This document shows, piece after piece, positions 1 to 64,000 of a DNA stretch of 64,000 nucleotides. The stretch is from a virus. The position numbers and the translations under genes were made by a program. Position 1 is the stretch's first letter; the number at the start of each line of letters is the position of its first letter. The notes below the pieces were generated by a model. It was not told the DNA's origin. It saw nothing but the letters and a program-made list of their open reading frames with translations, and did no database searches. The DNA is taken from the IMG/VR virus record IMGVR_UViG_3300045922_000293, positions 1 through 64,000 of that record; one strand, given 5' to 3'.

Positions 1-580
1 GGCTGGGACGATTTCTAAGGACTACAAAAGCATGTCTGTTTAGATTGTCATGGCGATGGATCAGCGGGCGTGCATCGTAAGATCGGTGCTGCATGTCAAA
101 AAGATCTGAATCCTATGATTACAAAAGGATGGCAACCCGCATGTTCTTGTGATGTAGGGGAGAATGCTCCCGTATCAGGCACCGTGATGGACCCGTTTGC
201 GGGTTCCTGCACTACGGGCGATGTGGCTTCTGGAAATGGCTATCGATCAGTGTGACCGATCACAAAATGATGGCAAGAGTGCTTATGGGGATAGTCATAC
301 GATTTGGGATGTCACGGAACCAGCTTCGCCTGAAGTTCAAGATGTTCTGAAGTCCGCACCCGCGCCTGTAACGGGAGCACGTAAGTTTTCGTATGAGGGG
401 TTTGATTTTGTGGGTTGCGATCTGAATGAATCTTATGTGAATATAGCTTGCGCACGCATTGACACGGAAGCCGTGACACTCAAGAAAAAACAGACAAAAA
501 AAGCACAAGCAAAAACTGAAGCAAAGCCTCAAGAAGCCCCCCTAAATTATTTGACTTCTTTTGATCAGATTGAAATATGA
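1..580 (+). pseudogene. 3' part of an N4/N6 DNA methyltransferase, interrupted by frameshifts
   Basis: Frame 1 gives GWQPACSC...TVMDPFAGSCTTG (SAM-binding motif I) but stops at 253-255. The expected continuation EGFDFVGCDLNESYVNIACARI is in frame 2 (ORF 197-580). Removing one base near 226-231 gives TTGDVALEMAIDQ. Frame 1 also has a stop at 16-18. Confidence 0.6.
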
Positions 581-2796
581 CAACACAAACATGTGACATC
601 AAGATCAAGCGCATTAAATATCAGGATACGGGTACGGGCTTTGCGATTGTGGAAGCACAGCCTAGTCAAGCCACGATGGTATGCAATGTATTCAAGGGCT
701 ATTTTCATCAGATGCGGATCGCAACCGGTATGACTTTGCATGTCACCGCTAAACTGGCATCTCATCCTAAATGGGGAACCTTTTGGGAAGTAACTCAGGC
801 ATCCATCCCGATTATGCGTCAGAATGCGAGACATACTTTCAAGATGCATATGGAAGCCTACCTTCAGGATATGGTCAGATCGCGTGTAGTAGACACGGTA
901 TCCAAATGCATCCCCTTGGATGATGATACTTTTTGGGATAATTTTACACACGATCCTGAAATACTCTACACGCTATGCCCTTCACATATGCACGAGGATG
1001 TAAAGAGCTTGATCGCTGCATGGCTTGATTTCAGGCAGCATCATAATGTGTTTGAAGGTTTGATTAAGATCGGCATCACTCCATCTCAAATTGCGAAAAT
1101 ATTTGAAACACTTGGTGAGGAGAATGCAATACAGAAGATTGAGGAGAATCCTTATTGCCTACTGTGGGTAGATACGATTAAGTTCAGTCAAGCGGACGCT
1201 TATGCTACGGAGATAAAAGGGTACACGAAAGATAATCCTCGCTGCATCACGTACATGCTTTATGCGATCTTTGTGAAGATATTGATCAGCCAAGGCCACA
1301 TTTATCTCACAATTCAAGAGTTAGAAAAAGAATCGCGTGAAATTTTAGAGAGAGAAGGTCAAGATGCTTTTTACTTAGATTATTTGCCTGAATGTTTGAA
1401 AACATGGCAAGATGATCATTGGATTCATGTTACACCCGAAGGTCATATTTATGAATCTATGACGTATGGTCACGAGTTGGCTATTGTGGATTATATCACA
1501 GATCGTCTTAGGACCCCGATCACAGATACTCTTGAGGTTTCGCAGATTTTAGACCTTGAGACACGCCACGGAATTGAGTTATCAGATACCCAGCGTGATG
1601 CCGTATACGGGATGCTTACGAACAGGATGTATCTTTTGACGGGGTTGCCCGGTACAGGTAAGAGCACCGTGATGAAGATCGCCTATGCTGCGTTTAGGCA
1701 AAAAAATCTTCATATTGTGATGCTCGCACCTACGGGCATTGCGGCCCAGCGTCTTTCGTATACCAGCGGGGCGGATGCTCTGACGGTCCATGCCTTCTTA
1801 GGGTATAAGGGACAGGATAGTTGGACGCATGGTGAATCACATCCCGTTCGCGCTGATGTCGTGATCGTGGATGAAGTGTCGATGATGGGTCAAAATTTGC
1901 TCTACCGTCTCTTGAGTGCCTTGCCCCTTGATTGTCAAGTGATTCTGACGGGTGATTCCGAGCAGTTACCGAGCGTAGATCAGGGCTATGTATTGCATGA
2001 CCTAATTTCATCTGGCGTGATCCCCCGTTCGCACTTTACAGAGATCTTTAGGCAGGAGCACACGAGCGCTATCGTGACCGCCGCCCATGCGATTAGCAAC
2101 GGGACATTGCCCCCCCTTGATCAGCCTAAGTCTGATTTTGTGTTCATTCAAGAAAATGATGCTTTCAAGGCACAAGTCATGATTCTTGAGGCGGCCTCAA
2201 AGCTGTATCAGCTCTCTCAGAAAACTGATGTGAGCTATCAAGTGATCGCGCCTTTGTATGCGGGCCCGTTGGGTGTGGACGCCTTAAATACAAAATTAAG
2301 AGATATGCTCAACCCCCCTCATCCCTCACATGCAGAAAAAACTTTCGGCTTCATTTCATTAAGGGAAGGCGATCGTGTCATGTGTGTGAGAAATGACTCG
2401 GCATTAGGGGTCTATAACGGGGAGATCGGGAAAGTTGCGGTGTTAGATGGGAAGGCGAAAGAATTGCGCTTGAAAATGTATGGGCTCACCCCGCAAGATC
2501 ATCGCGTCGTCAGTATTCCGTACAATCAAGTCACTCGCATGATCCGCCCCGCCATGTGCGTGACAACTCATAAATCACAGGGTCAGGAATGGGATATTGT
2601 GGTGTTGGCCTTGCACCCGCAACATGGCAAGATGCTTCAGCGTCAGTTAGTGTATACCGCGATCACGCGCGCGCGTAAGCGTGTGATCGTGATAGGCTCG
2701 TGGCAGTCCCTTCATAAGGCGATTCAGGTCACGGGTGCCTCGAATCGGAATACACAGCTAGGATCGAGGCTAAAAGCCTCTTGCCATTCCGTTTGA
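577..2796 (+). CDS. recD2: RecD2-like SF1B DNA helicase
   Basis: Walker A GLPGTGKS, APTGIAA, DEVSM, GDSEQLPSV, THKSQGQEW and YTAITRAR, plus the N-terminal ENPYxL region typical of RecD2. Confidence 0.92.
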   Translation: MTTQTCDIKIKRIKYQDTGTGFAIVEAQPSQATMVCNVFKGYFHQMRIATGMTLHVTAKLASHPKWGTFWEVTQASIPIMRQNARHTFKMHMEAYLQDMVRSRVVDTVSKCIPLDDDTFWDNFTHDPEILYTLCPSHMHEDVKSLIAAWLDFRQHHNVFEGLIKIGITPSQIAKIFETLGEENAIQKIEENPYCLLWVDTIKFSQADAYATEIKGYTKDNPRCITYMLYAIFVKILISQGHIYLTIQELEKESREILEREGQDAFYLDYLPECLKTWQDDHWIHVTPEGHIYESMTYGHELAIVDYITDRLRTPITDTLEVSQILDLETRHGIELSDTQRDAVYGMLTNRMYLLTGLPGTGKSTVMKIAYAAFRQKNLHIVMLAPTGIAAQRLSYTSGADALTVHAFLGYKGQDSWTHGESHPVRADVVIVDEVSMMGQNLLYRLLSALPLDCQVILTGDSEQLPSVDQGYVLHDLISSGVIPRSHFTEIFRQEHTSAIVTAAHAISNGTLPPLDQPKSDFVFIQENDAFKAQVMILEAASKLYQLSQKTDVSYQVIAPLYAGPLGVDALNTKLRDMLNPPHPSHAEKTFGFISLREGDRVMCVRNDSALGVYNGEIGKVAVLDGKAKELRLKMYGLTPQDHRVVSIPYNQVTRMIRPAMCVTTHKSQGQEWDIVVLALHPQHGKMLQRQLVYTAITRARKRVIVIGSWQSLHKAIQVTGASNRNTQLGSRLKASCHSV

Positions 2797-54698: not shown

Positions 54699-55781
54699 AT
54701 GGCGGTCAAGCGTAAGCGTGGCCGGCCTAGAAAACACCCACAACAAGAGGAAGGAAGTAGCATGAATAGTGATAGCATTGAGCTGGTCGAAAATGGCGTG
54801 GGTTTGGATATTGGCACAATGAATATTGTGTCTGCCCGCCAACAGGAGGATCGCGTTCTGTTCCGTAAACAGCGCGACGCATTCTTTGATTTGGATATCA
54901 CCGCAAAGCCTATGCTGAGGTTGAATAGGGTTCCGTTCATTCAGCAAGATGATCGCTTGATCATCCTTGGGGATTCGGCACTTGCCTTTGCCAATGTGTT
55001 CAATAGGGAATTGCGTCGCCCCTTATCACAGGGGCTCATCTCGAATACAGATCGTGAGGGGGCGGAGATTCTTCAAATTCTGATCCAAAACACGATCGGG
55101 AAGCCTCAGGGGGATCAAGAAACGTGTTGCTTTAGCGTCCCCGGCAATCCTGTGGATCTGCCGGGCCGTGATAATGTGTATCATCGCGGGGTGTTCTCCA
55201 ACATCCTCAAGGGTCTTGGGTATAAACCTATTGCGTCGAATGAGGCCCTTGCGGTCATCTTCAGCGAGACCGCGCCTGAGATGTTCAGTGGCGTCGCGCT
55301 ATCCTTCGGCGCTGGCATGGTCAACATCTCCTGCGCCTATCAGACTCAGGCGGTGCAAGCTCTTCAGTTTGCGGTTGCGCGGTCGGGTGATTATATTGAT
55401 CAACAATCGGCACAATCCCTAGGCTTAACGGCGGCGAAAATGTGCAAGATCAAAGAGGATGGCATTGATCTTCGTAGCCCTTCTACGCAAGAGGAGAGCG
55501 CGCTTGCGTTCTATTATCAAGAGGTGATTCGCTATGCCTTGGGTCACATCGTAGATCGCTATAAAATGACGGCGGGTCAGAGCATCAGCTTCCCCGAAGC
55601 TGTTCCGATGATTCTAAGTGGCGGCACGACACTCGTGAAGGGATTTCACGAGTTGTTCAGTGCAGAGTTTGAGCGCTGCCGCAAGAAGTTTCCGATCCCA
55701 ATCAGTGAGATTCGCATGGCGACAGACCCCCTCAATGCCGTCGCTAGTGGACTCTTGATTCAAGCGCAGCAGGAAGACTGA
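54699..55781 (+). CDS. actin-like ATPase (MreB/ParM/FtsA superfamily)
   Basis: Phosphate-1 GLDIGTMNI, connect-1 SNEALA, phosphate-2 SFGAGMVN, adenosine LSGGTT and connect-2 DPLNAVASG. In-frame ATGs at 54699 and 54762. Confidence 0.85.
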   Translation: MAVKRKRGRPRKHPQQEEGSSMNSDSIELVENGVGLDIGTMNIVSARQQEDRVLFRKQRDAFFDLDITAKPMLRLNRVPFIQQDDRLIILGDSALAFANVFNRELRRPLSQGLISNTDREGAEILQILIQNTIGKPQGDQETCCFSVPGNPVDLPGRDNVYHRGVFSNILKGLGYKPIASNEALAVIFSETAPEMFSGVALSFGAGMVNISCAYQTQAVQALQFAVARSGDYIDQQSAQSLGLTAAKMCKIKEDGIDLRSPSTQEESALAFYYQEVIRYALGHIVDRYKMTAGQSISFPEAVPMILSGGTTLVKGFHELFSAEFERCRKKFPIPISEIRMATDPLNAVASGLLIQAQQED

Positions 55782-55984: not shown

Positions 55985-57787
55985 ATGAATTATCAATATC
56001 TCACGACATCCATCAAGCGGAGGATGCTTGAAGACCTGAAGCGGCACTTCAGCTACATCCCTCAGCACAAAGATATTGTTGAGCACATCCGCTACAAGTA
56101 CGACTTCAAGGAGAGGCCCCAGAAAGGCATCTTCTTGATGAACGTATCTGCCACCCCCATGAAGCTGTCTACAGATAACTACATGGCGGGATTGCATTCT
56201 TATGTGATGCTCGGAAAACTTGATCTTGGTACATCACGGCCAAGCGGAATGTTCGTGGATTGGGTCAAGGAAGATACGGAATTAATTGAACGTAACAAAG
56301 GCATCCCGCCTGCTTTTGCAGGGCAGTACAATCTTGAAATTCAATCCCGCATCGATCCATCTACGAAAGAAACGGAATGGGATCTGTATGTGGACCCCAT
56401 TTACAAGGTGCTTCAGGAGCCTTTGCTCACATTCGTTACGGGCAATGAAACTTCTGCAAATCTTCAAAACATCCCTGTCTACCCGAATAGCCCGCGCCTG
56501 TATCTCAATGGGCGTACACAACTCCTAAGCGGACCTGTGTTCAGTCTTCAAGCCAATCAAAGTCTCATCATTCATGATCCCCTCTTTGGTTTACCTCAAG
56601 GTCAGATCCGTGTGAGGGCGTTGTCCCCACAGATGGCCCCGTACACTATTGTGGCGGGCGTGAATGATGTGTTGGCTTTTGAAGTGAACGGCACCCCCGT
56701 CACGGTGCTTCTTCCCCCAGGCGTGTATACAGCACAGCAGATGAAACAGGAGATTGACGCTGCCGCTCATGCGGAGAGTCTGTTTGCACCCGAGTATATC
56801 ACGAATGTGGTGGGGGATCAGCTTGAGATCACGGGAATCACGTCTGTATTTTTTGAGGATCATATCTTTTCCCCCGCCTCCCCCACTCTCGGCTTCCCCT
56901 CCGCTAGCTTTATTCCCCCTATTGCGCAGGGGGTGCTTTTCAGGCCCCGTGTATTGGACCATCAAAATGTCATGACCTTGATTCTGGACGGTATTGAGTA
57001 TGCCATCATCTTTGAGCCCGGCATGTATAAAGATGCTGTGGAGATTCGGGATAGGATTCAAGATCAATTGCCCGTTGGGGTAACCTTAGTGTTACAAGAT
57101 GGGGGGGAGTACACAGTGGATAACGTGACGGGTGCGGTGACGTTCCATGTGGCGTTTAGCCCCGGTGATCACGTGATTGCGGATTATTCTTATCACGGGC
57201 CCTCCCGCGGGCCTATAGCCGTAAAGAAGAATCAAGAGGTGCGCCATGCCGTGGAAGGCGCGATGATAGCCCTTGGCGAGTCCTTTGAAGATAAAGATAA
57301 GTGTTTCATCTTGATTTTACCCCATCGTGTTCATACCGCGGATTTGTATGGGGGTAAGACTGAGATAAGTTTGGATTTTGATATTATCGCCCGTGATCCG
57401 ATGGATCGTGAGAGCCTTGTTGACATTCTTACGATGTATTTTCATCATTATGAAAATGAGCGGTTTGCTGAGGAGGGCTTAGGTATTACAAGTGTGAGCG
57501 GGGGTGGTGAGAGTGAAGAGGTCTATGATGATGTGGGGGACGATTATTTCTACAAAAGTAGTGTGAGTGTGTCTCTCCAAAGTGATTGGGAGGTAGCAGT
57601 GCCGCGCCCCCTCACCATTGAAAAGATTTTGCCCGTGACGTATGAGCAGGAGGCTTTATTAGCTGCGCGGGAGCGTGACATTCTCCCTCATGATCAGGTT
57701 TTGCGCCCCGTAGTGTCCGTGACTCAAGAAGAGATAAAAGAGAAGGCACGGCGTGGTTTGACACCCTTTAAAGAGAGAATCCACTGA
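55985..57787 (+). CDS. probable tail-completion/terminator protein with inserted beta domains
   Basis: N-terminal KYDFKERPQKGIFL and C-terminal ISLDFDIIARDPMDRESLVDIL fit a tail-terminator core; inserts are shared with the sheath; lies shortly before the sheath gene. Confidence 0.55.
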   Translation: MNYQYLTTSIKRRMLEDLKRHFSYIPQHKDIVEHIRYKYDFKERPQKGIFLMNVSATPMKLSTDNYMAGLHSYVMLGKLDLGTSRPSGMFVDWVKEDTELIERNKGIPPAFAGQYNLEIQSRIDPSTKETEWDLYVDPIYKVLQEPLLTFVTGNETSANLQNIPVYPNSPRLYLNGRTQLLSGPVFSLQANQSLIIHDPLFGLPQGQIRVRALSPQMAPYTIVAGVNDVLAFEVNGTPVTVLLPPGVYTAQQMKQEIDAAAHAESLFAPEYITNVVGDQLEITGITSVFFEDHIFSPASPTLGFPSASFIPPIAQGVLFRPRVLDHQNVMTLILDGIEYAIIFEPGMYKDAVEIRDRIQDQLPVGVTLVLQDGGEYTVDNVTGAVTFHVAFSPGDHVIADYSYHGPSRGPIAVKKNQEVRHAVEGAMIALGESFEDKDKCFILILPHRVHTADLYGGKTEISLDFDIIARDPMDRESLVDILTMYFHHYENERFAEEGLGITSVSGGGESEEVYDDVGDDYFYKSSVSVSLQSDWEVAVPRPLTIEKILPVTYEQEALLAARERDILPHDQVLRPVVSVTQEEIKEKARRGLTPFKERIH

Positions 57788-57789
57788 TT

Positions 57790-58236
57790 ATGCCTATTTT
57801 TAAGTTTGATTGCCCTGAATGTGGGTTGACGTTTGAAAAATTGGTTCAAAACCGCAACATAAAAGAGATGGAGTGTATTCATTGTGCTTTCACTGCTCAA
57901 AAGCGCCTTAGCGCGTTCAATTCACAGTTTGCGGACGCTAAAAATGCATCACGCGGATTCTCAGGTGTTTATGATCTTGATGTCAATTTAGACAAAAATT
58001 TAGGGCGTGATGCACAAAACCGCTGGGAGATCATTAAGAATCGTGAGTCTCAAAAAGATCGTATGCATGCATCCGTTGCGCAGCAAACAGGGGTGAAAGA
58101 CGCTAGGGTGGCGCTCAAGCGTGATCTTGATTTGAAGGAGCCCGTGTATGAACCCATGACCCGTCAAGAGGTTCTGACGAACGTGAAGTTAAGGCGTGAG
58201 GCCCGGGCTTATGAAGCGGAAATGAAAAAGGGTTAG
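57790..58236 (+). CDS. FmdB-family zinc-ribbon protein
   Basis: MPIFKFDCPECGLTFE...CIHC...KRLS. Confidence 0.8.
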   Translation: MPIFKFDCPECGLTFEKLVQNRNIKEMECIHCAFTAQKRLSAFNSQFADAKNASRGFSGVYDLDVNLDKNLGRDAQNRWEIIKNRESQKDRMHASVAQQTGVKDARVALKRDLDLKEPVYEPMTRQEVLTNVKLRREARAYEAEMKKG

Positions 58237-58293: not shown

Positions 58294-59238
58294 ATGTTTT
58301 ATCCTATGTATCAAAAGCCTGTGAGCGTGCAGAAGAGCTTATCCGTTATATCTGTAGAGTCTACCGCGTTTGATGTGCTGGCTAGTGAGGGTCGTATTGC
58401 CTCGGAAAGATTAACCTCGCAGATGCTTTATCCTAATATGCCTCTCATCGTGATCTGTGAGGAGAACGGGCAGAAGCATTCTTTACTGGCCATTGCGCTG
58501 AAAGAAGAAGATAAGGAAAAGCGTACAATTACGGTACATAAGGTGTCACATGGCAAAGACGGCGGGAGTGTTAACGGGATCAAACCCCGTAATAAAGAGC
58601 AGAGCTTGTTATTAGCTCTGCTCCAAATGATGCATGTGCGAGTGCTTGTCGTCACAGGTCCGGCGGGTACGGGTAAGAGCTTGTGTATTGCAGCGCATGC
58701 TTTTGAGGTGATCAGTAAGACCAAAGATATGAAGTTGGTCTTGACGAAGCCCTTAGAGATCGTGACGGGGACGCGTTTTTGGGGTACCATGCCCGGAAAT
58801 GCAGATGAGAAGTTTGAGCCTTTTCTTAAATCTTTTTCAGTTCTCTTTGAGTCCATCTCGCCAAGGGGTGCGAGTACCCGTGAATATGTGGATGGATTGT
58901 TAAAGAGCAAGCGCATCGAATTCTATCCCTTAGAAGTGATGCGCGGGGTGTCTCACCGAAATAGTTATGTGTGGTATGATGAAGCGCAAAACATGGATTG
59001 TCATGAAATGCTTACATTAGGATCACGCATTGATGATGTGGGACAGAGCCGTCTTGTTTTATCAGGTGATTTGTATCAACAGGATCGTCATATCGCCCGT
59101 CCTGAAACAGGCTTGCACCACCTTGTGACCTCAAAGCATTTCTTGGAGTCCCCTCACACGGCACACATGGATCTCAATAAGATTGAGCGGGGCGTCGTGT
59201 GTCAGCTATTCCATGATATCTTCAGTGGTCTCGCCTAG
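58294..59238 (+). CDS. phoH: PhoH-like ATPase
   Basis: PRNKEQ, GPAGTGKS, MRGVS, DEAQN and GDLYQQD. Confidence 0.9.
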   Translation: MFYPMYQKPVSVQKSLSVISVESTAFDVLASEGRIASERLTSQMLYPNMPLIVICEENGQKHSLLAIALKEEDKEKRTITVHKVSHGKDGGSVNGIKPRNKEQSLLLALLQMMHVRVLVVTGPAGTGKSLCIAAHAFEVISKTKDMKLVLTKPLEIVTGTRFWGTMPGNADEKFEPFLKSFSVLFESISPRGASTREYVDGLLKSKRIEFYPLEVMRGVSHRNSYVWYDEAQNMDCHEMLTLGSRIDDVGQSRLVLSGDLYQQDRHIARPETGLHHLVTSKHFLESPHTAHMDLNKIERGVVCQLFHDIFSGLA

Positions 59239-59282: not shown

Positions 59283-59407
59283 ACCCCACCGTGTTTAAAG
59301 CCTTCGTGTAAGAAGGTCTTTTTATCAAGCCGCTATCTTTGCCATACGGCAAAGAATCCGGATATGATTTTAAAAGTGAATAGATAAAAGCGAAGGACTT
59401 GACGCCC

Positions 59408-62400
59408 ATGAGTATTTTCCCTACCTATGCTCCTCCCGGTGTATACACACAGACGCGCGCACAGCAAGATGCGAGTGGCCCTCCCAATGGCCTCCGTCTC
59501 CCCGTGTTTATCGGTACGGGCAAAGAGACGTTGCGTCGCGTCAACCTAGAGCTGATTAGGGGTTCTTCTGTACAAGCGGATCAGCGCATTAATCGTGAGT
59601 CTGTCGCGGAGCGCGCTATTATAGCACAGACGGGCGAGACCACTTTCGTGCTAGGTGCGTTTGATGGTGTCACGAATCGTATTCAGGTTTTGAATTTTCC
59701 GATTACGAATGGGAGCGGCCAGGGCCTTCCGAGCAATAATGTGGCGGATGTGGTTGTGACGGTGAACGGCATCCCCGTCCGTCCCGCCGGAATGCGCGGC
59801 GCGTTAGGTGTGATCACGCTTCAAATTCCCCCGTTGCCCGGTGATGATGTGCGCGTGACGTACTCGTTCAAGCGCACGGACACCCTCATCACAGATGATC
59901 TCAGTGCTCAGGTCACCACCCAACCCGCTCGATTGTTTGGTGCTTTGCCTGAACCTTATACGATTGTATCAGGCGTCAATGACACCCTGATTTTGATCGT
60001 TGATGGTGTGACACATACCCGCACCTTACCTGCTGTGACGGGTATCACGGCTTCGGATCTTGCGGTACAAATCAATGGCTTGCTTATCCCCGGTTTGACG
60101 GTGTTTGCGGATACTGATAATAGGGGTCAGGGCCGTCTTGTGTTCGAGGCAGCGCAGGGGATCCTTATCGGGGCGGGAACCGCAAACGGGGTGCTAGGAT
60201 TCATCACGGGACAGCGTACAAGGCGCAATCAGGTATTCTTCACGAATCAGGGGCCGATTGTGGATGGTCGTAACGGCGGCATCACGACGACGGACCCAAC
60301 AGATGTGAGCGTGCGCGTGGACAACGTGCCTGTCATTCCCCTTGCGGTGGATGGGACAAACTACTCAGTCACGTTGCCCTTTGCACCAGCGCCGGGGGCT
60401 CGGGTTGAAATCACCTATTTCTTTAATGCTTGGCAAGACACGTTTGACTACCTTCCTGATACGGGAGTCACGAATGTGCTTCAGGTGGGAAACATCCCCG
60501 ACAAGCGCGATTATCGTGAAGAGCTTGATTATGTGGTCCTAAATGATCGCATCCTATGGGGTGCCGCGACGAATATCATGTCGGGTGTGAACACGGGGGG
60601 CACGGATCCTTTCGGATCGGAGCAGATCTCAACGCTTCTGATCGATAACCGTATGTATCTAGAGCGCGCGACAAGATTTGTGGATCGTTCCGTAAGCCCC
60701 GCCCGCGAGTCGAATACGACGTTTATTCTTGAAAATATTCCCACGCTAGGTAATGGGCGGGATACGCCACTGAATCTTGACGTCTTTCATGCGGTCGCCA
60801 ACGATCGTATTCAGGTGCCCTCAAATCGAACGGATTTGATTCAAGTCTTTACAGGCCCCAACTTATCGAGTGCTCTGCTTGAAGGCCCGAGAAGCGTTGT
60901 GCGTGTTACGGCGACAAATCGTAGGGTGACATTAGCGGAGCCAATCCCACCTGATCATTTCATTTGGGTGTCTTATTACTATAATCGTCTGCGTGATGAT
61001 CGTTATACGCTAGAGGTGCAGACGCAGACTTCGGGTCTTATTCCGGGCCAGTACACGGTCACGTCACGACTCCAGGGTCAACGCTTGTATGATGTGCGTT
61101 TTGGTACGACAACTTCTAGCGTGCCGATTGCATGGCCCTCCGGTGTTGAGACGGATCCTGACGGGTTCATTGTAGGAGGTCAGGGGCGTAATGAAACCGT
61201 GACGGTCACATTTACGCAGATTCCTGCCACCCCCGCAATTCTCACGAATACGTCAACGGGGCCTTATGACCTGTATGCGACTTTATCAGATCGGCTTTAT
61301 ATCAATGTATCAGGGACGCCGACTACAACGAATTTGAATCAGCCCGCTCCGGGCACCCTTGTGAGCGGCGCGCATCCTTCTGCAACATTGTTCACCTTTA
61401 CCCCTTCAAATAACGTCTTCTCTTTTGAGCTGGATGGGGTGGTGTTCAATGCGAATATTCCCGCAGGTGTGTACACGGGTCCGCAGATTGTTGAGCGTAT
61501 GAATCGCGCCGCGTTGCCCTTATCTACCGTGACGGCGGGCATTGCACAGCCTTATGATATTATCTCACAGGTGCAAGGCACGAATGCCGCGCCGTTTGAT
61601 ATCTTCTCGCAGATCACGGGGTCACAAGTTGGGCCGTTCAATATCTTCGCAGCGGTGCAAGGTACGAACGCGGGGCCTTTTGATATCTTTGCAGAGATTC
61701 TTGGGACGAATGTGGGGCCTTTTGATACGTTCGCGACGCTGACCACGCCTAGCTCCGAGCCTTTTGATACCACACTCGGCAATCATGTTTTTGATCTTAC
61801 GGTCAACGGTGTCCCTGTAAGCGTCAACCTCACGGTGGGCGCGGCAGAGACGGCGGCTACCCTGATCGCGGATATTACCGCCGAGCTGACGCTTCAAGGC
61901 TTAAATGTCGGGCCTTTGACCTTCCCCACTACAAATGATGTGGAGGTCTTGAATCAGGCGGGTGCAATTGAAATACGCGCAACAGATTCAGTGGTCATCG
62001 GCGCAGGTACGGCGAACACACCTTTTGGTTTTGTAGGCGGCGAGACGAGTAACGCTGTGGTGAATTTTGACGTTGAAATTAACGGCACAGGTGTGAATGC
62101 GATTCTACAGGGAGCGGCGGCTGTGCCAACATCAGCGGTGATTACCGCGTTGAGCGCAGCGGCGACCGCAGCGGCATTCAATGTGGGCCCACTCAATGTA
62201 TTGACAAATGATGTGGTGTTTGAAAACATTGCGGGGGCGGTGCGTATCCGATCAACCAACACCGTCGAGATCGGATTGCAGACGATCACTAACACCCTTC
62301 TCGGCTTTGCAGACGCAGATCTTGACCGAGCGGATAATGCACTTGAGTTCAATATTGATGTAAACGCCGCCCCCATCGCTGTCCCTGTAACATTGCGAGG

Positions 62401-64000
62401 TGGTATCGCGATCCCCACAAGCCGTATCGCGGAAGATGTCAATGATGCGATTGCGTTAGCGGGCCTGACTCAGGGACCATTGACGACACTCACGAATCAA
62501 GCCCATGCTCTTGTGGGCCCGGGGCAAACGCTACGCATTGAAGTGAAAGAGTCGATCACTGTGCTTGCGGAGACTGCAAACGGTGCGCTTGGTCTAGTGC
62601 CCGCTACGATCACCGCCCCGAATGTGTTTGACTTCACTGTCAATACCATTCCTGTCACAGCCTCTTTACTTGGGAATGCGGCGGGCCGTCATGTTCCCGC
62701 TGCAAATATTGCGACAGCACTGAACGCTGCCGCAGCTTTGGCGGGTGTGACCGTGGGCGTGCTTACGGTCCCCGGTAATGATTTTGATGCGGCGGTGTTA
62801 GCGGCTTCTATTCTACAGCTTCAGGCCACGCAGAATATCACGATCGGCGCGGGGACCGCTAACCCCGTATTAGGCTTTACCAATCTCGCTACAGCATCCT
62901 CCCCCAATACGTTTGACCTTGAAGTGAACGGCACCCCCGTCACGGTCTTGTTTAACGGGGGGAGGGGTATTGCTGCGTCACAGATTCAAACCGAGATCGA
63001 GGCTGCTTTGATCAGCTCTTTGATTGTGGTAGGGGACGTGAGTGTGAGTGGTAATGAGGCGGATGTGAGTGTTCAGAACGGGCGTGTCCGTATCAGGGCG
63101 AGGGACTCTGTTGAGGTGCTTGCAGGGAATGCCAACCCTGTGTTAGGATTTGCAGACAACACGGCGGTCACCACCTCAGATCAGCTCACCTTTATCATGA
63201 ATGGTGTCCCCGTCAACGTCACATTAAATCGTCTTGCGAATCAAAGTGCCCTCTCTATTGCTGCCCAGATCAATGCTCAAGCGGTCGTGGCAGGTCTCAA
63301 TGTGGGCCCAATCACGACACCGGGATTTGAGGCGCAGGCGGTGAGCGTCAACGGGCGTCTACAGGTGCAAGCGTATCAGGATCTTGAGGTAGTTGCGGCG
63401 TCAGCGAACGGGATTTTTGGTCTTGTGCCTAGTGTGCTGCCCTCCAATGTGGAATTTGCAAAATATCGATCGGGCCTCAATACGGATCGATTCTTGATCC
63501 GATCCCGTGTACTCCCCACCAATCCCTCACAGGTAAGCCGTATCCGTATCCTGAGCGGAACCGCAAATGCAACGCTTCTGTTTACCCCGTTTGCGGATGC
63601 CACGGGAACAGAGCGCGCGGTCAACAAGCCCGCTACGGTGATTGGTACGAATGTGACTCCTTTGCAAATTCAGAATCTTGCACTTCAAAATCCTGTCTTG
63701 CGTGTACGCTTGCAGGGGTCTGAATTTCAAGTCACGGGCTTTACGCTTGTCACGAACTTAGCGGATGTGGCCAACGTCATCAACACCGTGATCGCAGGGG
63801 CGGGCAGTGTGACAGTGGAGGGTCAGCGTTTGCGTGTGACCAGTGCGGTGGATACCCCCGACAGCCTTGTGGAGATCGTGCCTGCTCCCGCCAATAGTTT
63901 CTTAGGATTTACGGGAACGGAGCGCGGGGTGTTGCGACGAGTCGCCGCATCAGAAGTGGCAGCGGTCCTCAATTGGCAGTCTTTAGACTGGCTCGCGCCC
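59408..64000 (+). CDS. giant tail sheath protein, truncated by the window end (more than 1531 aa)
   Basis: ATG 59408 gives MSIFPTYAPPGVYTQ...LPVFIGTG, the usual sheath N-terminus. The segments I translated stay in this frame to the window end, and absence from the ORF track is consistent with no stop codon. Confidence 0.82.
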   Translation, partial: MSIFPTYAPPGVYTQTRAQQDASGPPNGLRLPVFIGTGKETLRRVNLELIRGSSVQADQRINRESVAERAIIAQTGETTFVLGAFDGVTNRIQVLNFPITNGSGQGLPSNNVADVVVTVNGIPVRPAGMRGALGVITLQIPPLPGDDVRVTYSFKRTDTLITDDLSAQVTTQPARLFGALPEPYTIVSGVNDTLILIVDGVTHTRTLPAVTGITASDLAVQINGLLIPGLTVFADTDNRGQGRLVFEAAQGILIGAGTANGVLGFITGQRTRRNQVFFTNQGPIVDGRNGGITTTDPTDVSVRVDNVPVIPLAVDGTNYSVTLPFAPAPGARVEITYFFNAWQDTFDYLPDTGVTNVLQVGNIPDKRDYREELDYVVLNDRILWGAATNIMSGVNTGGTDPFGSEQISTLLIDNRMYLERATRFVDRSVSPARESNTTFILENIPTLGNGRDTPLNLDVFHAVANDRIQVPSNRTDLIQVFTGPNLSSALLEGPRSVVRVTATNRRVTLAEPIPPDHFIWVSYYYNRLRDDRYTLEVQTQTSGLIPGQYTVTSRLQGQRLYDVRFGTTTSSVPIAWPSGVETDPDGFIVGGQGRNETVTVTFTQIPATPAILTNTSTGPYDLYATLSDRLYINVSGTPTTTNLNQPAPGTLVSGAHPSATLFTFTPSNNVFSFELDGVVFNANIPAGVYTGPQIVERMNRAALPLSTVTAGIAQPYDIISQVQGTNAAPFDIFSQITGSQVGPFNIFAAVQGTNAGPFDIFAEILGTNVGPFDTFATLTTPSSEPFDTTLGNHVFDLTVNGVPVSVNLTVGAAETAATLIADITAELTLQGLNVGPLTFPTTNDVEVLNQAGAIEIRATDSVVIGAGTANTPFGFVGGETSNAVVNFDVEINGTGVNAILQGAAAVPTSAVITALSAAATAAAFNVGPLNVLTNDVVFENIAGAVRIRSTNTVEIGLQTITNTLLGFADADLDRADNALEFNIDVNAAPIAVPVTLRGGIAIPTSRIAEDVNDAIALAGLTQGPLTTLTNQAHALVGPGQTLRIEVKESITVLAETANGALGLVPATITAPNVFDFTVNTIPVTASLLGNAAGRHVPAANIATALNAAAALAGVTVGVLTVPGNDFDAAVLAASILQLQATQNITIGAGTANPVLGFTNLATASSPNTFDLEVNGTPVTVLFNGGRGIAASQIQTEIEAALISSLIVVGDVSVSGNEADVSVQNGRVRIRARDSVEVLAGNANPVLGFADNTAVTTSDQLTFIMNGVPVNVTLNRLANQSALSIAAQINAQAVVAGLNVGPITTPGFEAQAVSVNGRLQVQAYQDLEVVAASANGIFGLVPSVLPSNVEFAKYRSGLNTDRFLIRSRVLPTNPSQVSRIRILSGTANATLLFTPFADATGTERAVNKPATVIGTNVTPLQIQNLALQNPVLRVRLQGSEFQVTGFTLVTNLADVANVINTVIAGAGSVTVEGQRLRVTSAVDTPDSLVEIVPAPANSFLGFTGTERGVLRRVAASEVAAVLNWQSLDWLAP
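61523..61771 (+). repeat. degenerate 42-nt (14-aa) coding repeat, six copies, inside the sheath gene
   Basis: P[YF][DN] codons start at 61550, 61592, 61634, 61676, 61718 and 61760. Confidence 0.9.

What the first reader, a model, noticed from the sequence alone, without database searches (positions are those of the whole stretch)
61200..64000. Six-deep nested domain insertion in a giant tail sheath
Seen: an intact module occurs at about 59924-60205 (PARLFGALPEPYTI, then VSGVNDTLILIVDG...helix...GAGTANGVLGF). Later, six first strands occur back to back (STVTAGIAQPYDI, ISQVQGTNAAPFDI, FSQITGSQVGPFNI, FAAVQGTNAGPFDI, FAEILGTNVGPFDT, FATLTTPSSEPFDT). They are followed by six module bodies of about 90-95 aa lacking that strand (NHVFDLTVNG..ANTPFGF, VNFDVEING..TNTLLGF, LEFNIDVN..ANGALGL, NVFDFTVN..ANPVLGF, NTFDLEVNG..ANPVLGF, DQLTFIMNG..ANGIFGL). 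The stack interrupts another module (NNVFSFELDG...QIVERMNRAA, resuming at DRFLIRS...GTANATLLF), which itself seems to lie inside a further one. Known: T4 gp18 has domains inserted within domains. Inference: each domain is inserted in the same loop of the previous one, so the chain runs out and back and forms a stalk projecting from every sheath subunit.
Basis: partly seen in the sequence, partly recalled or inferred. Interest (0 to 1): 0.8.

Follow-up and report, generated by a model that had tools for sequence, protein, structure and literature searches.

The report
Giant phage sheath with self-nested domains
A 2,041-residue tail sheath protein of a huge uncultivated phage has six short "first strand" units followed by six flagellar-cap-like domain bodies, five lacking that strand; this probably means domains nested inside one another like Russian dolls, but the strand-to-body pairing could not be shown.

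Summary
The + strand ORF (likely start 59408, runs past the window to genome base 65533) is a tail sheath: its C-terminal 350 aa match phrog_2839 at E 2e-36. Residues 708-791 are six exact 14-aa units. Six ~85-aa module bodies follow. Unit 6 plus body 1 is an ordinary intact module. Bodies 2-6 start at column 10-20 of a 100-column module profile, so they lack the first strand.

Strand and body counts match in relatives: 1:1 in ~1,520-aa forms, 6:6 in three further proteins, 7:7 in a 2,138-aa form. The module has the FliD-D3 / flagellin outer-domain fold, also found as the insertion domain of phage XM1 sheath (Z 11.7). Two enclosing modules are split domains in confident parts of an AlphaFold2 model, so nesting holds there.

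The six-level pairing was not shown. Two AlphaFold2 runs gave pLDDT 27-55 in the stack, and covariation tests had no power. A depth-2 precedent exists: Geovibrio flagellin D5 is a copy of D4 inserted in D4's loop.

Verdict: a mirrored, nested rod is the best reading (about 0.5). It is a new, extreme variant of a known kind. The scan noted this same stretch in two other overlapping windows.

The parts
59408..64000 (+). Tail sheath gene. It continues to genome base 65533, outside the window. The likely start is ATG 59408; the ORF opens at TTG 59399.
   Evidence: phrog_2839 tail sheath, E 2e-36, on aa 1690-2040. tblastn hits annotated sheaths of Tunturi_5, Bacillus phage G and Myrna-like phages. 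Full ORF.
59927..60202 (+). Intact module M0 (aa 177-268), profile columns 1-100
61232..61348 (+). N-terminal part of the outermost split module (aa 612-650; strand A plus hairpin; profile columns 1-38)
   Evidence: VIA aligns model 11..996 as one FliD-like domain (Z 7.7-8.0).
61376..61516 (+). N-terminal part of the outer split module (aa 660-706; strands plus helix), interrupted after the helix
   Evidence: VIA aligns model 50..806 as one domain (Z about 7).
61520..61729 (+). Five orphan 14-aa first-strand units A1-A5 (aa 708-777)
   Evidence: Exact 14-aa period. A profile of the first-strand segment, built from 245 foreign intact modules, ranks all six units among the top 20 of about 2,030 windows of the protein.
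61730..62032 (+). Innermost intact module: unit A6 plus body B1 (aa 778-878), profile columns 1-100
62057..62308 (+). Body B2 (aa 887-970), no first strand; profile starts at column 19
62339..62596 (+). Body B3 (aa 981-1066), no first strand; profile starts at column 20
62618..62878 (+). Body B4 (aa 1074-1160), no first strand; profile starts at column 10
62903..63151 (+). Body B5 (aa 1169-1251), no first strand; profile starts at column 14. It holds a 28-nt exact match to the upstream gene.
63176..63424 (+). Body B6 (aa 1260-1342), no first strand; profile starts at column 10
63458..63598 (+). C-terminal part of the outer split module (aa 1354-1400; DRFLIRS...GTANATLLF)
   Evidence: pLDDT 70-89 in model 1. 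Relatives give profile columns 80-100 at the same place. VIA range 50..806.
63632..63910 (+). Intact module M9 (aa 1412-1504)
   Evidence: pLDDT about 90. VIA: XM1 sheath insertion domain, Z 11.7, rmsd 2.0 A, 104 aa.
63911..64000 (+). [quoted passage not shown]

Best explanation
The gene encodes the contractile tail sheath of a huge phage. The N- and C-terminal parts form the conserved sheath core. The roughly 1,400 residues between them are surface decoration, built from one kind of ~95-aa module with the FliD-D3 / flagellin outer-domain fold: strand A, a hairpin, a helix, a hairpin, a last strand, and a GTANxxLGF end.

In aa 612-1590 the modules are nested. An outermost module is split after its third strand. 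It encloses an intact module (M9) and a second module split after its helix. That second module encloses the stack.

In the stack, the chain most likely runs outward through five orphan A strands (A1-A5), reaches an intact tip module (A6+B1), and returns through bodies B2-B6. Each body is completed by the A strand at the mirror position: A5 with B2, down to A1 with B6. The result would be a rod of about eight modules, very roughly 20 nm long, on each sheath subunit.

Shown: the sheath identity, the module fold, the split architecture of the two outer levels, the missing first strand of B2-B6, the first-strand-like character of the units, and the matching counts. Inferred: the strand-body pairing, its mirrored order, the rod shape, and any role such as adhesion to the host surface or tail stabilisation.

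The likely origin is a repeated copy-into-own-loop event, or paired tandem growth of the 42-nt strand array and the ~270-nt body array. The event is old: no DNA repeat is left, and the bodies are 20-42% identical.
For: (1) Sheath identity: phrog_2839 at E 2e-36. tblastn hits annotated sheaths. The upstream gene resembles the Tunturi_5 tail terminator, E 4e-12.

(2) Complementary fragments: bodies B2-B6 start at profile column 10-20, while 779-878 covers 1-100. The 14-aa units cover columns 1-13 and score 3.3-5 SD above background on a first-strand profile built only from other phages' modules.

(3) Counts: 1 strand and 1 body in ~1,520-aa relatives; 6:6 in P0004, P0005 and P0006; 7:7 in P0007. 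The only length differences between P0007 and the query in this region are one 14-aa unit and one 88-aa body.

(4) The strand array is as conserved among orthologs as the bodies (0.49 against 0.43-0.53 identity) and has no indels inside units.

(5) Nesting holds at the next two levels. Both have pLDDT 76-93, and each split module aligns as a single FliD D2-D3-like domain across the insert (model 50..806, Z about 7; model 11..996, Z 7.7-8.0).

(6) The fold commonly occurs as an insertion domain: XM1 sheath insertion domain Z 11.7, Pa193/E217 sheaths Z 8.7-9.4, FliD D3 Z 9.1, Vibrio flagellins Z 9.5-9.7 (PMC10457771).

(7) Precedent: in Geovibrio thiophilus flagellin, D5 is a duplication of D4 inserted in one of its loops, and D4 is FliD-like (PMC11532411). 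T4 gp18 has domain I in II in III in IV (PMC3004832).

(8) Units follow each other with no linker, and bodies are joined by 6-10 aa. That fits adjacent strands lying on adjacent bodies.
Against: No structural evidence supports the pairing. AlphaFold2 gave pLDDT 26-63 across the stack in the 1,001-aa run. In the 221-aa run it gave 27-34 for A4-A6. In the low-confidence first model the six units are drawn as strands, and one weak structural match (Z 2.9, model 115..182) treats them as a sheet of their own. Body B2 reached pLDDT 62-84 and aligned to FliD without any strand A.

Other proteins hold long arrays of 14-aa xFDI repeats with no bodies. So a repeat of this period and pattern may fold alone. 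Those repeats score lower on the first-strand profile than most of the stack's units (0-9 against 1-19).

Only two independent multi-level counts exist (6 and 7). Similarity-matrix and coupling tests did not favour the mirror order.
Confidence: 0.5

Rival explanations
1. Beads plus spacer. The six 14-aa units fold on their own as a small beta-meander or solenoid stalk, or are a semi-flexible spacer. Bodies B2-B6 are a shortened variant of the module, strung in ordinary tandem, that does not need strand A.
For: In the low-confidence first model the units are strands that match a sheet of their own (row 42). B2 reached pLDDT 62-84 and aligned to FliD without a strand A. Arrays of 10-20 similar 14-aa repeats exist without bodies in P0096-P0111. 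Weak residue-coupling signals suggest strand A pairs mainly with the last strand; if it is an edge strand it may be dispensable.
Against: It does not explain why unit and body numbers match at 1, 6 and 7. It does not explain why the units keep the conserved features of the first-strand segment. All 305 intact modules seen in 170 loci carry strand A next to the body. The model region has pLDDT about 33, so it carries little weight.
Confidence: 0.25
2. Strand complementation, but not as an intramolecular mirror. The orphan strands complete headless bodies in another order, for example a closed ring of six domains, or they complete bodies of neighbouring sheath subunits. The second case would cross-link the tail surface, much as sheath cores exchange N- and C-terminal strands.
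For: Matching counts and the first-strand-like character of the units fit this equally well. Sheath subunits are known to exchange terminal strands ('handshake', PMC10457771). The similarity and coupling tests did not single out the mirror order.
Against: A6 is joined to B1 by the normal 5-aa loop, and A5 joins A6 with no linker. The nearest headless body along the chain path is therefore B2, as in the mirror order. Fixed cross-links on the outer surface would have to survive the large subunit movements of contraction. There is no precedent in this fold. The known precedent (Geovibrio D4/D5) is intramolecular nesting.
Confidence: 0.15
3. The arrangement is a decaying or assembly-derived oddity: an orphaned repeat region with no defined structure.
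For: The genome is a single metagenomic contig of 113 kb. Only about five proteins among billions share the stack.
Against: The frame is open for 2,044 codons. The same architecture is kept in four independent assemblies at 44-65% identity with no indels inside units. That indicates purifying selection on a real protein.
Confidence: 0.03

Closest known systems
Geovibrio thiophilus flagellin outer domains D4/D5 (cryo-EM; PMC11532411)
   Same: A FliD-like domain was duplicated and the copy sits inside a loop of the original, so the chain goes out and back. It is the same broad fold class as the module here.
   Different: It has two levels, not six or seven, and sits in a flagellin, not a phage sheath. 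The insertion loop was not compared. Its pairing is solved; the pairing here is inferred.
Phage T4 sheath gp18 (domain I in II in III in IV; PMC3004832)
   Same: It is a tail sheath whose outer domains are successive insertions, with the core made of the N and C termini and the inserted domains exposed on the tail surface.
   Different: T4 has four unrelated domain folds and 659 aa. Here one fold is repeated about ten times in 2,041 aa, with up to eight levels in one stretch. No sequence match to any solved chain was found.
Insertion domain of Vibrio phage XM1 sheath gp6 (PDB 7KH1), and sheaths of Pseudomonas phages E217/Pa193, PhiTE and cyanophage A-1(L)
   Same: These are the best structural matches of the module: Z 11.7, rmsd 2.0 A over 104 aa for XM1, and 7.4-9.4 for the others. 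In XM1 it is a FliD-D3-like domain inserted into a sheath protein (PMC10457771).
   Different: Those sheaths are about 450-500 aa and carry a single copy. None has tandem first strands or headless bodies.
FliD (flagellar cap) D3 domain and the Flagellin_IN motif, PF07196
   Same: Fold match at Z 7-9.1. Three of 73 family bodies hit PF07196, best E 5e-5. A profile of the bodies hits Campylobacter FliD at E 0.044.
   Different: The query's own modules do not reach any Pfam threshold. The relation is remote, and the setting is a virion rather than a flagellum.
Giant sheath family of huge phages (P0008-P0094; Tunturi_5 gp326; LR745208)
   Same: The sheath core is the same. The relatives examined in detail also carry M0, the split outermost module and M9. 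There are 92 relatives of 1,168-2,489 aa on contigs up to 520 kb in that search and up to 552 kb among the fetched loci.
   Different: They have no inserted module (~1,430 aa) or one (~1,520 aa), or other inserts. Only P0004-P0007, and the fragment P0095 (which shows the end of one body followed directly by another), have the stack.

Membership tests
Contractile phage tail sheath protein | Conserved C-terminal sheath core domain | tested here: met
   phrog_2839 'tail sheath', E 2.3e-36, aa 1690-2040. tblastn gives 30-33% identity to annotated sheaths of Tunturi_5, phage G and Myrna-like phages.
Contractile phage tail sheath protein | Conserved N-terminal segment that joins the C-terminal core, with inserts in between | tested here: met
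   Matches to the Tunturi_5 sheath and LR745208 cover query 9/10 to 2037/2043 in two pieces. The N terminus (YAPPGVYT) is nearly invariant in ten homologs.
Contractile phage tail sheath protein | Tail-gene neighbourhood | tested here: met
   The upstream 600-aa protein resembles the Tunturi_5 tail terminator gp324 (E 4e-12), in the same gene order as in Tunturi_5. A tube gene was not looked for.
Contractile phage tail sheath protein | Assembles into a contractile helical sheath | not testable with these tools
   Needs virions or recombinant polysheaths.
FliD-D3 / flagellin outer-domain fold (Flagellin_IN-related insertion domain) | Same three-dimensional fold | tested here: met
   Module M9 has pLDDT about 90. 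Matches: 7kh1_A6 Z 11.7, rmsd 2.0, 104 aa; 6kty FliD Z 9.1; Vibrio flagellins Z 9.5-9.7.
FliD-D3 / flagellin outer-domain fold (Flagellin_IN-related insertion domain) | Sequence membership in Pfam PF07196 | tested here: inconclusive
   Three of 73 related bodies hit at E <= 1 (best 5e-5). None of the query's own bodies does. An ESM Atlas lead points to Flagellin_IN clusters at 0.85-0.91.
Nested (domain-in-domain) insertion architecture | One domain formed by two chain segments that flank a complete inserted domain | tested here: met
   This holds for the two enclosing modules. The profile hits are split. pLDDT is 76-93. Each module aligns as one FliD-like domain over model 50..806 and over 11..996. 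The evidence is model-based, not experimental.
Nested (domain-in-domain) insertion architecture | In the stack, each orphan first strand is hydrogen-bonded into the body at the mirror position | tested here: inconclusive
   AlphaFold2 was below pLDDT 55 in the stack in both runs. VIA on model 2 aligned B2 alone. Covariation tests had no power.
Nested (domain-in-domain) insertion architecture | Equal numbers of N-side and C-side fragments in all relatives | tested here: met
   1:1, 6:6 (four proteins counting the query) and 7:7. No exception was found in 92 proteins and 171 loci.

The most novel reading that the evidence does not exclude
One FliD-like domain has been inserted into itself six times (seven in a relative), on top of two further enclosing copies. 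That would be an eight-level Russian-doll chain: five 14-aa strands form the outward rail and five headless bodies form the return path, giving each of the hundreds of sheath subunits a rod about 20 nm long. It would be the deepest recursive domain insertion known. It would also be a natural case of a fold split at three different loops within one protein.
Probability: 0.5. Interest if true: 0.8.

Novelty: new variant of a known kind. Interest (0 to 1): 0.66.

Why it matters
Domain-in-domain insertion is known in sheaths (T4 gp18) and flagellins, and a two-level self-insertion has been solved in Geovibrio flagellin. A six- or seven-level self-insertion would show that this route of protein growth can be repeated many times.

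It would give a natural test set for how far a fold tolerates being split, since here the split follows strand 1, strand 3 and the helix. It would show how two repeat arrays, of 42 nt and about 270 nt, can be kept at equal number. It would also predict a new tail morphology for huge phages: a bristled sheath.

It is a hard case for structure prediction as well. AlphaFold2 failed on it with five orthologs.

Tried and rejected
1. AlphaFold2 on aa 600-1600 with 10 homologs. The outer parts were confident, but the stack had pLDDT 26-63, so it says nothing on pairing.

2. AlphaFold2 on aa 750-970 (A4 A5 A6 B1 B2, with A4 as an orphan control) and a checked ortholog alignment. Mean pLDDT was 50, and even the cis strand A6 was not placed. 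Uninformative.

3. Deeper alignments mixing paralogs, single modules and double modules. MAFFT could not be made to put sequences on the second body, or it misaligned the whole proteins, so these alignments were not folded.

4. Complex prediction with B2 + B3 + peptide A4A5. It gave no answer (ipSAE 0.00/0.01, controls not run). This is not evidence either way.

5. VIA on model 2. Only B2 alone aligned (FliD, Z 5.4).

6. Mantel-type comparison of the strand and body similarity matrices. Mirror and parallel orders both correlate weakly, so there is no discrimination.

7. Mean-field coupling analysis on 287-303 intact modules (effective number about 220-230), followed by paralog matching. Couplings were unstable and the mirror z-score was about 0. 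An I/V match seen by eye in the query did not hold in the orthologs.

8. Searches for more stack-bearing relatives. These covered the word-indexed protein set (near and shorter lengths), 1.84 billion representatives, IMG/VR, JGI metagenomes and GTDB genomes. They found only P0004-P0007 and the fragment P0095.

No DNA could be fetched for P0004-P0007, so no sub-regions of them could be used.

10. PDB sequence searches with the whole protein, the strand array, and a repeat protein found nothing. Tandem Repeats Finder found no DNA repeat in the gene.

Full report
WHAT IS THERE. The window's last large ORF opens at 59399 (+) and runs off the window. In the 113,160-bp contig it ends at 65533, giving 2,044 codons. 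The homolog consensus begins M..(F)..YAPPGVYT. The true start is therefore probably the ATG at 59408 (MSIFPTYAPPGVY). The database copy P0003 (2,009 aa) was called 35 codons too short.

The C-terminal 350 aa match PHROG 2839 'tail sheath' at E 2e-36. tblastn against phage records finds the annotated sheaths of Tunturiibacter phage Tunturi_5, Bacillus phage G and Myrna-like mycobacteriophages. It also finds an unannotated 485-kb uncultured phage. Tunturi_5 is a 309-kb myovirus (PMC11924767). The 600-aa protein upstream resembles the Tunturi_5 tail terminator (E 4e-12). The protein is thus a giant tail sheath of a huge phage. The family has 92 members of 1,168-2,489 aa on contigs up to 520 kb.

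THE OBSERVATION. All quoted peptides are present. The motif P[FY][DNT][ILTV] falls at residues 718, 732, 746, 760, 774 and 788, exactly 14 apart. Six bodies follow at 795-878, 887-970, 981-1066, 1074-1160, 1169-1251 and 1260-1342.

I built a 100-column profile of the module by iteration over the family. It reads the query as follows:
- aa 177-268, columns 1-100 (intact M0)
- aa 613-650, columns 1-38
- aa 660 onward, from column 6 (the first half of a module)
- aa 779-878, columns 1-100
- five bodies starting at columns 19, 20, 10, 14 and 10
- aa 1412-1504, columns 1-100

Unit 6 plus body 1 is therefore a normal intact module. There are five orphan units and five headless bodies. The orphan units cover columns 1-13, and the bodies keep the 'xxND' part of the A-B loop. 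The two sets are complementary fragments of one profile.

I also made a position matrix of the first-strand segment from 245 distinct modules of other phages. It places all six units among the top 20 of about 2,030 windows of the protein, 3.3-5 SD above background.

RELATIVES. About 1,430-aa relatives, of which there are many in IMG/VR, have the enclosing module uninterrupted. About 1,520-aa relatives (P0008-P0012, L004-L010) have it split after its helix by one intact module. P0004, P0005 (65% identity) and P0006 (51%) have six units and six bodies. P0007 (44%, 2,138 aa) has seven and seven.

Against the query, P0007 differs in this region by exactly one 14-aa unit and one 88-aa body. Among orthologs the strand array is as conserved as the bodies (0.49 against 0.43-0.53 identity) and has no indels within units. 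No other stack-bearing protein was found in any collection, apart from the fragment P0095. The bodies are only 20-42% identical to each other and no DNA repeat remains. The expansion is old.

FOLD AND OUTER NESTING. An AlphaFold2 model of aa 600-1600 is confident (pLDDT 76-93) outside the stack. Module M9 matches the following:
- the insertion domain of the phage XM1 sheath: Z 11.7, rmsd 2.0 A, 104 aa
- Vibrio flagellin outer domains: Z 9.5-9.7
- Pa193/E217 sheaths: Z 8.7-9.4
- FliD D3: Z 9.1

The XM1 paper had already noted that its insertion domain resembles FliD D3 (PMC10457771). Three of 73 family bodies hit Pfam Flagellin_IN.

The two enclosing modules each align as one FliD-like domain across their inserts: model 50..806 at Z about 7, and model 11..996 at Z 7.7-8.0. 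Nesting at these two levels is therefore supported by the split profile hits and by the confident parts of the model. The three proposed split points differ: after strand 3, after the helix, and after strand 1.

THE SIX-LEVEL PAIRING. A second run on A4-A5-A6-B1-B2, with a verified ortholog alignment, gave 27-34 for the units, 52-64 for B1 and 62-84 for B2. Even the cis strand A6 was not placed, so the failure lies with the method. I could not make MAFFT build a deeper alignment for the second body. The complex prediction gave no answer. Similarity-matrix and coupling tests had no power.

WEIGHING. Six points favour mirrored complementation:
- the counts are equal in three states
- the units and bodies are exact complementary fragments of the profile
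- the units are conserved and have a fixed length
- every other module in 171 loci has strand A next to its body
- the same protein is nested at two further levels
- this fold class is known as an insertion domain, and in Geovibrio flagellin it is duplicated into its own loop (PMC11532411)

T4 gp18 shows that sheaths tolerate serial insertion (PMC3004832). The absence of any linker between units, and the normal 5-aa loop from A6 to B1, make B2 the nearest partner for A5. That favours the mirror order over a ring or a parallel order.

Three points count against. There is no structural support. The low-confidence first model draws the units as a sheet of their own. Other proteins carry long arrays of similar 14-aa xFDI repeats without bodies.

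I put mirrored nesting at about 0.5. An independent repeat plus bead-like bodies gets 0.25. Complementation in another order, or between subunits, gets 0.15.

NOVELTY. Giant multi-domain sheaths and nested insertion are known, and a published survey reports 'five and more' domains (PMC9230969). A self-nested stack of six or seven copies, with tandem first strands, is not described in the papers I could search. I class it as a new, extreme variant of a known kind. The scan's earlier notes contain the same reading of this same stretch from two other overlapping windows. They are not independent evidence.

Noticed in passing
window 56679-56706 and 62919-62946: There is an exact 28-nt match (coding EVNGTPVTV) between the module in the upstream tail-terminator-like gene and sheath body B5, while the flanks have diverged. 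This suggests recent gene conversion or exchange between modules of two tail genes.
   Followed up: partly
window 55985-57787 (+): This 600-aa protein carries the same FliD-like module (phrog_19400; profile hits in its homologs L006-L008). Its C-terminal part resembles the Tunturi_5 tail terminator gp324 (E 4e-12). The decoration module is therefore shared by several tail proteins.
   Followed up: partly
L001 10899-12545 (genome 65898-67544, just past the window); window 58294-59238; window 57790-58236: A phage-encoded GroEL-like chaperonin (phrog_5725, E 6.5e-118) lies directly downstream of the giant sheath gene. PhoH and a zinc-ribbon protein lie between the terminator-like gene and the sheath. 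A DHH phosphoesterase and an AAA ATPase follow.
   Followed up: no
proteins P0096-P0111: These unrelated proteins of 572-1,750 aa (one with a tail-protein PHROG hit) hold arrays of 10-20 tandem 14-aa repeats of the form ..EV.K....KFDI, with no module bodies. They match the sheath's strand array at E 1e-11 to 1e-3. Their fold is unknown.
   Followed up: partly
loci L083-L170 (~1,430-aa relatives), just upstream of the M9-type module: The C-terminal motif of the preceding module reads ..LGTQVGGFDTF and is followed directly by ATLLGS.AGPFNIT. The module's end motif therefore looks like another 14-aa first-strand unit (compare A5, FAEILGTNVGPFDT). It may be the seed of the strand array, or a convergence.
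   Followed up: no
window 59399-59503: The database copy of the protein (P0003, 2,009 aa) starts 35 codons downstream of the ORF's opening TTG. The homolog consensus supports the ATG at 59408, so the public gene call is probably truncated at the N terminus, which belongs to the sheath core.
   Followed up: partly
window 54699-55781: Earlier scan notes report an actin-like gene with an in-frame AT-hook just upstream of the tail cluster. I did not examine it.
   Followed up: no
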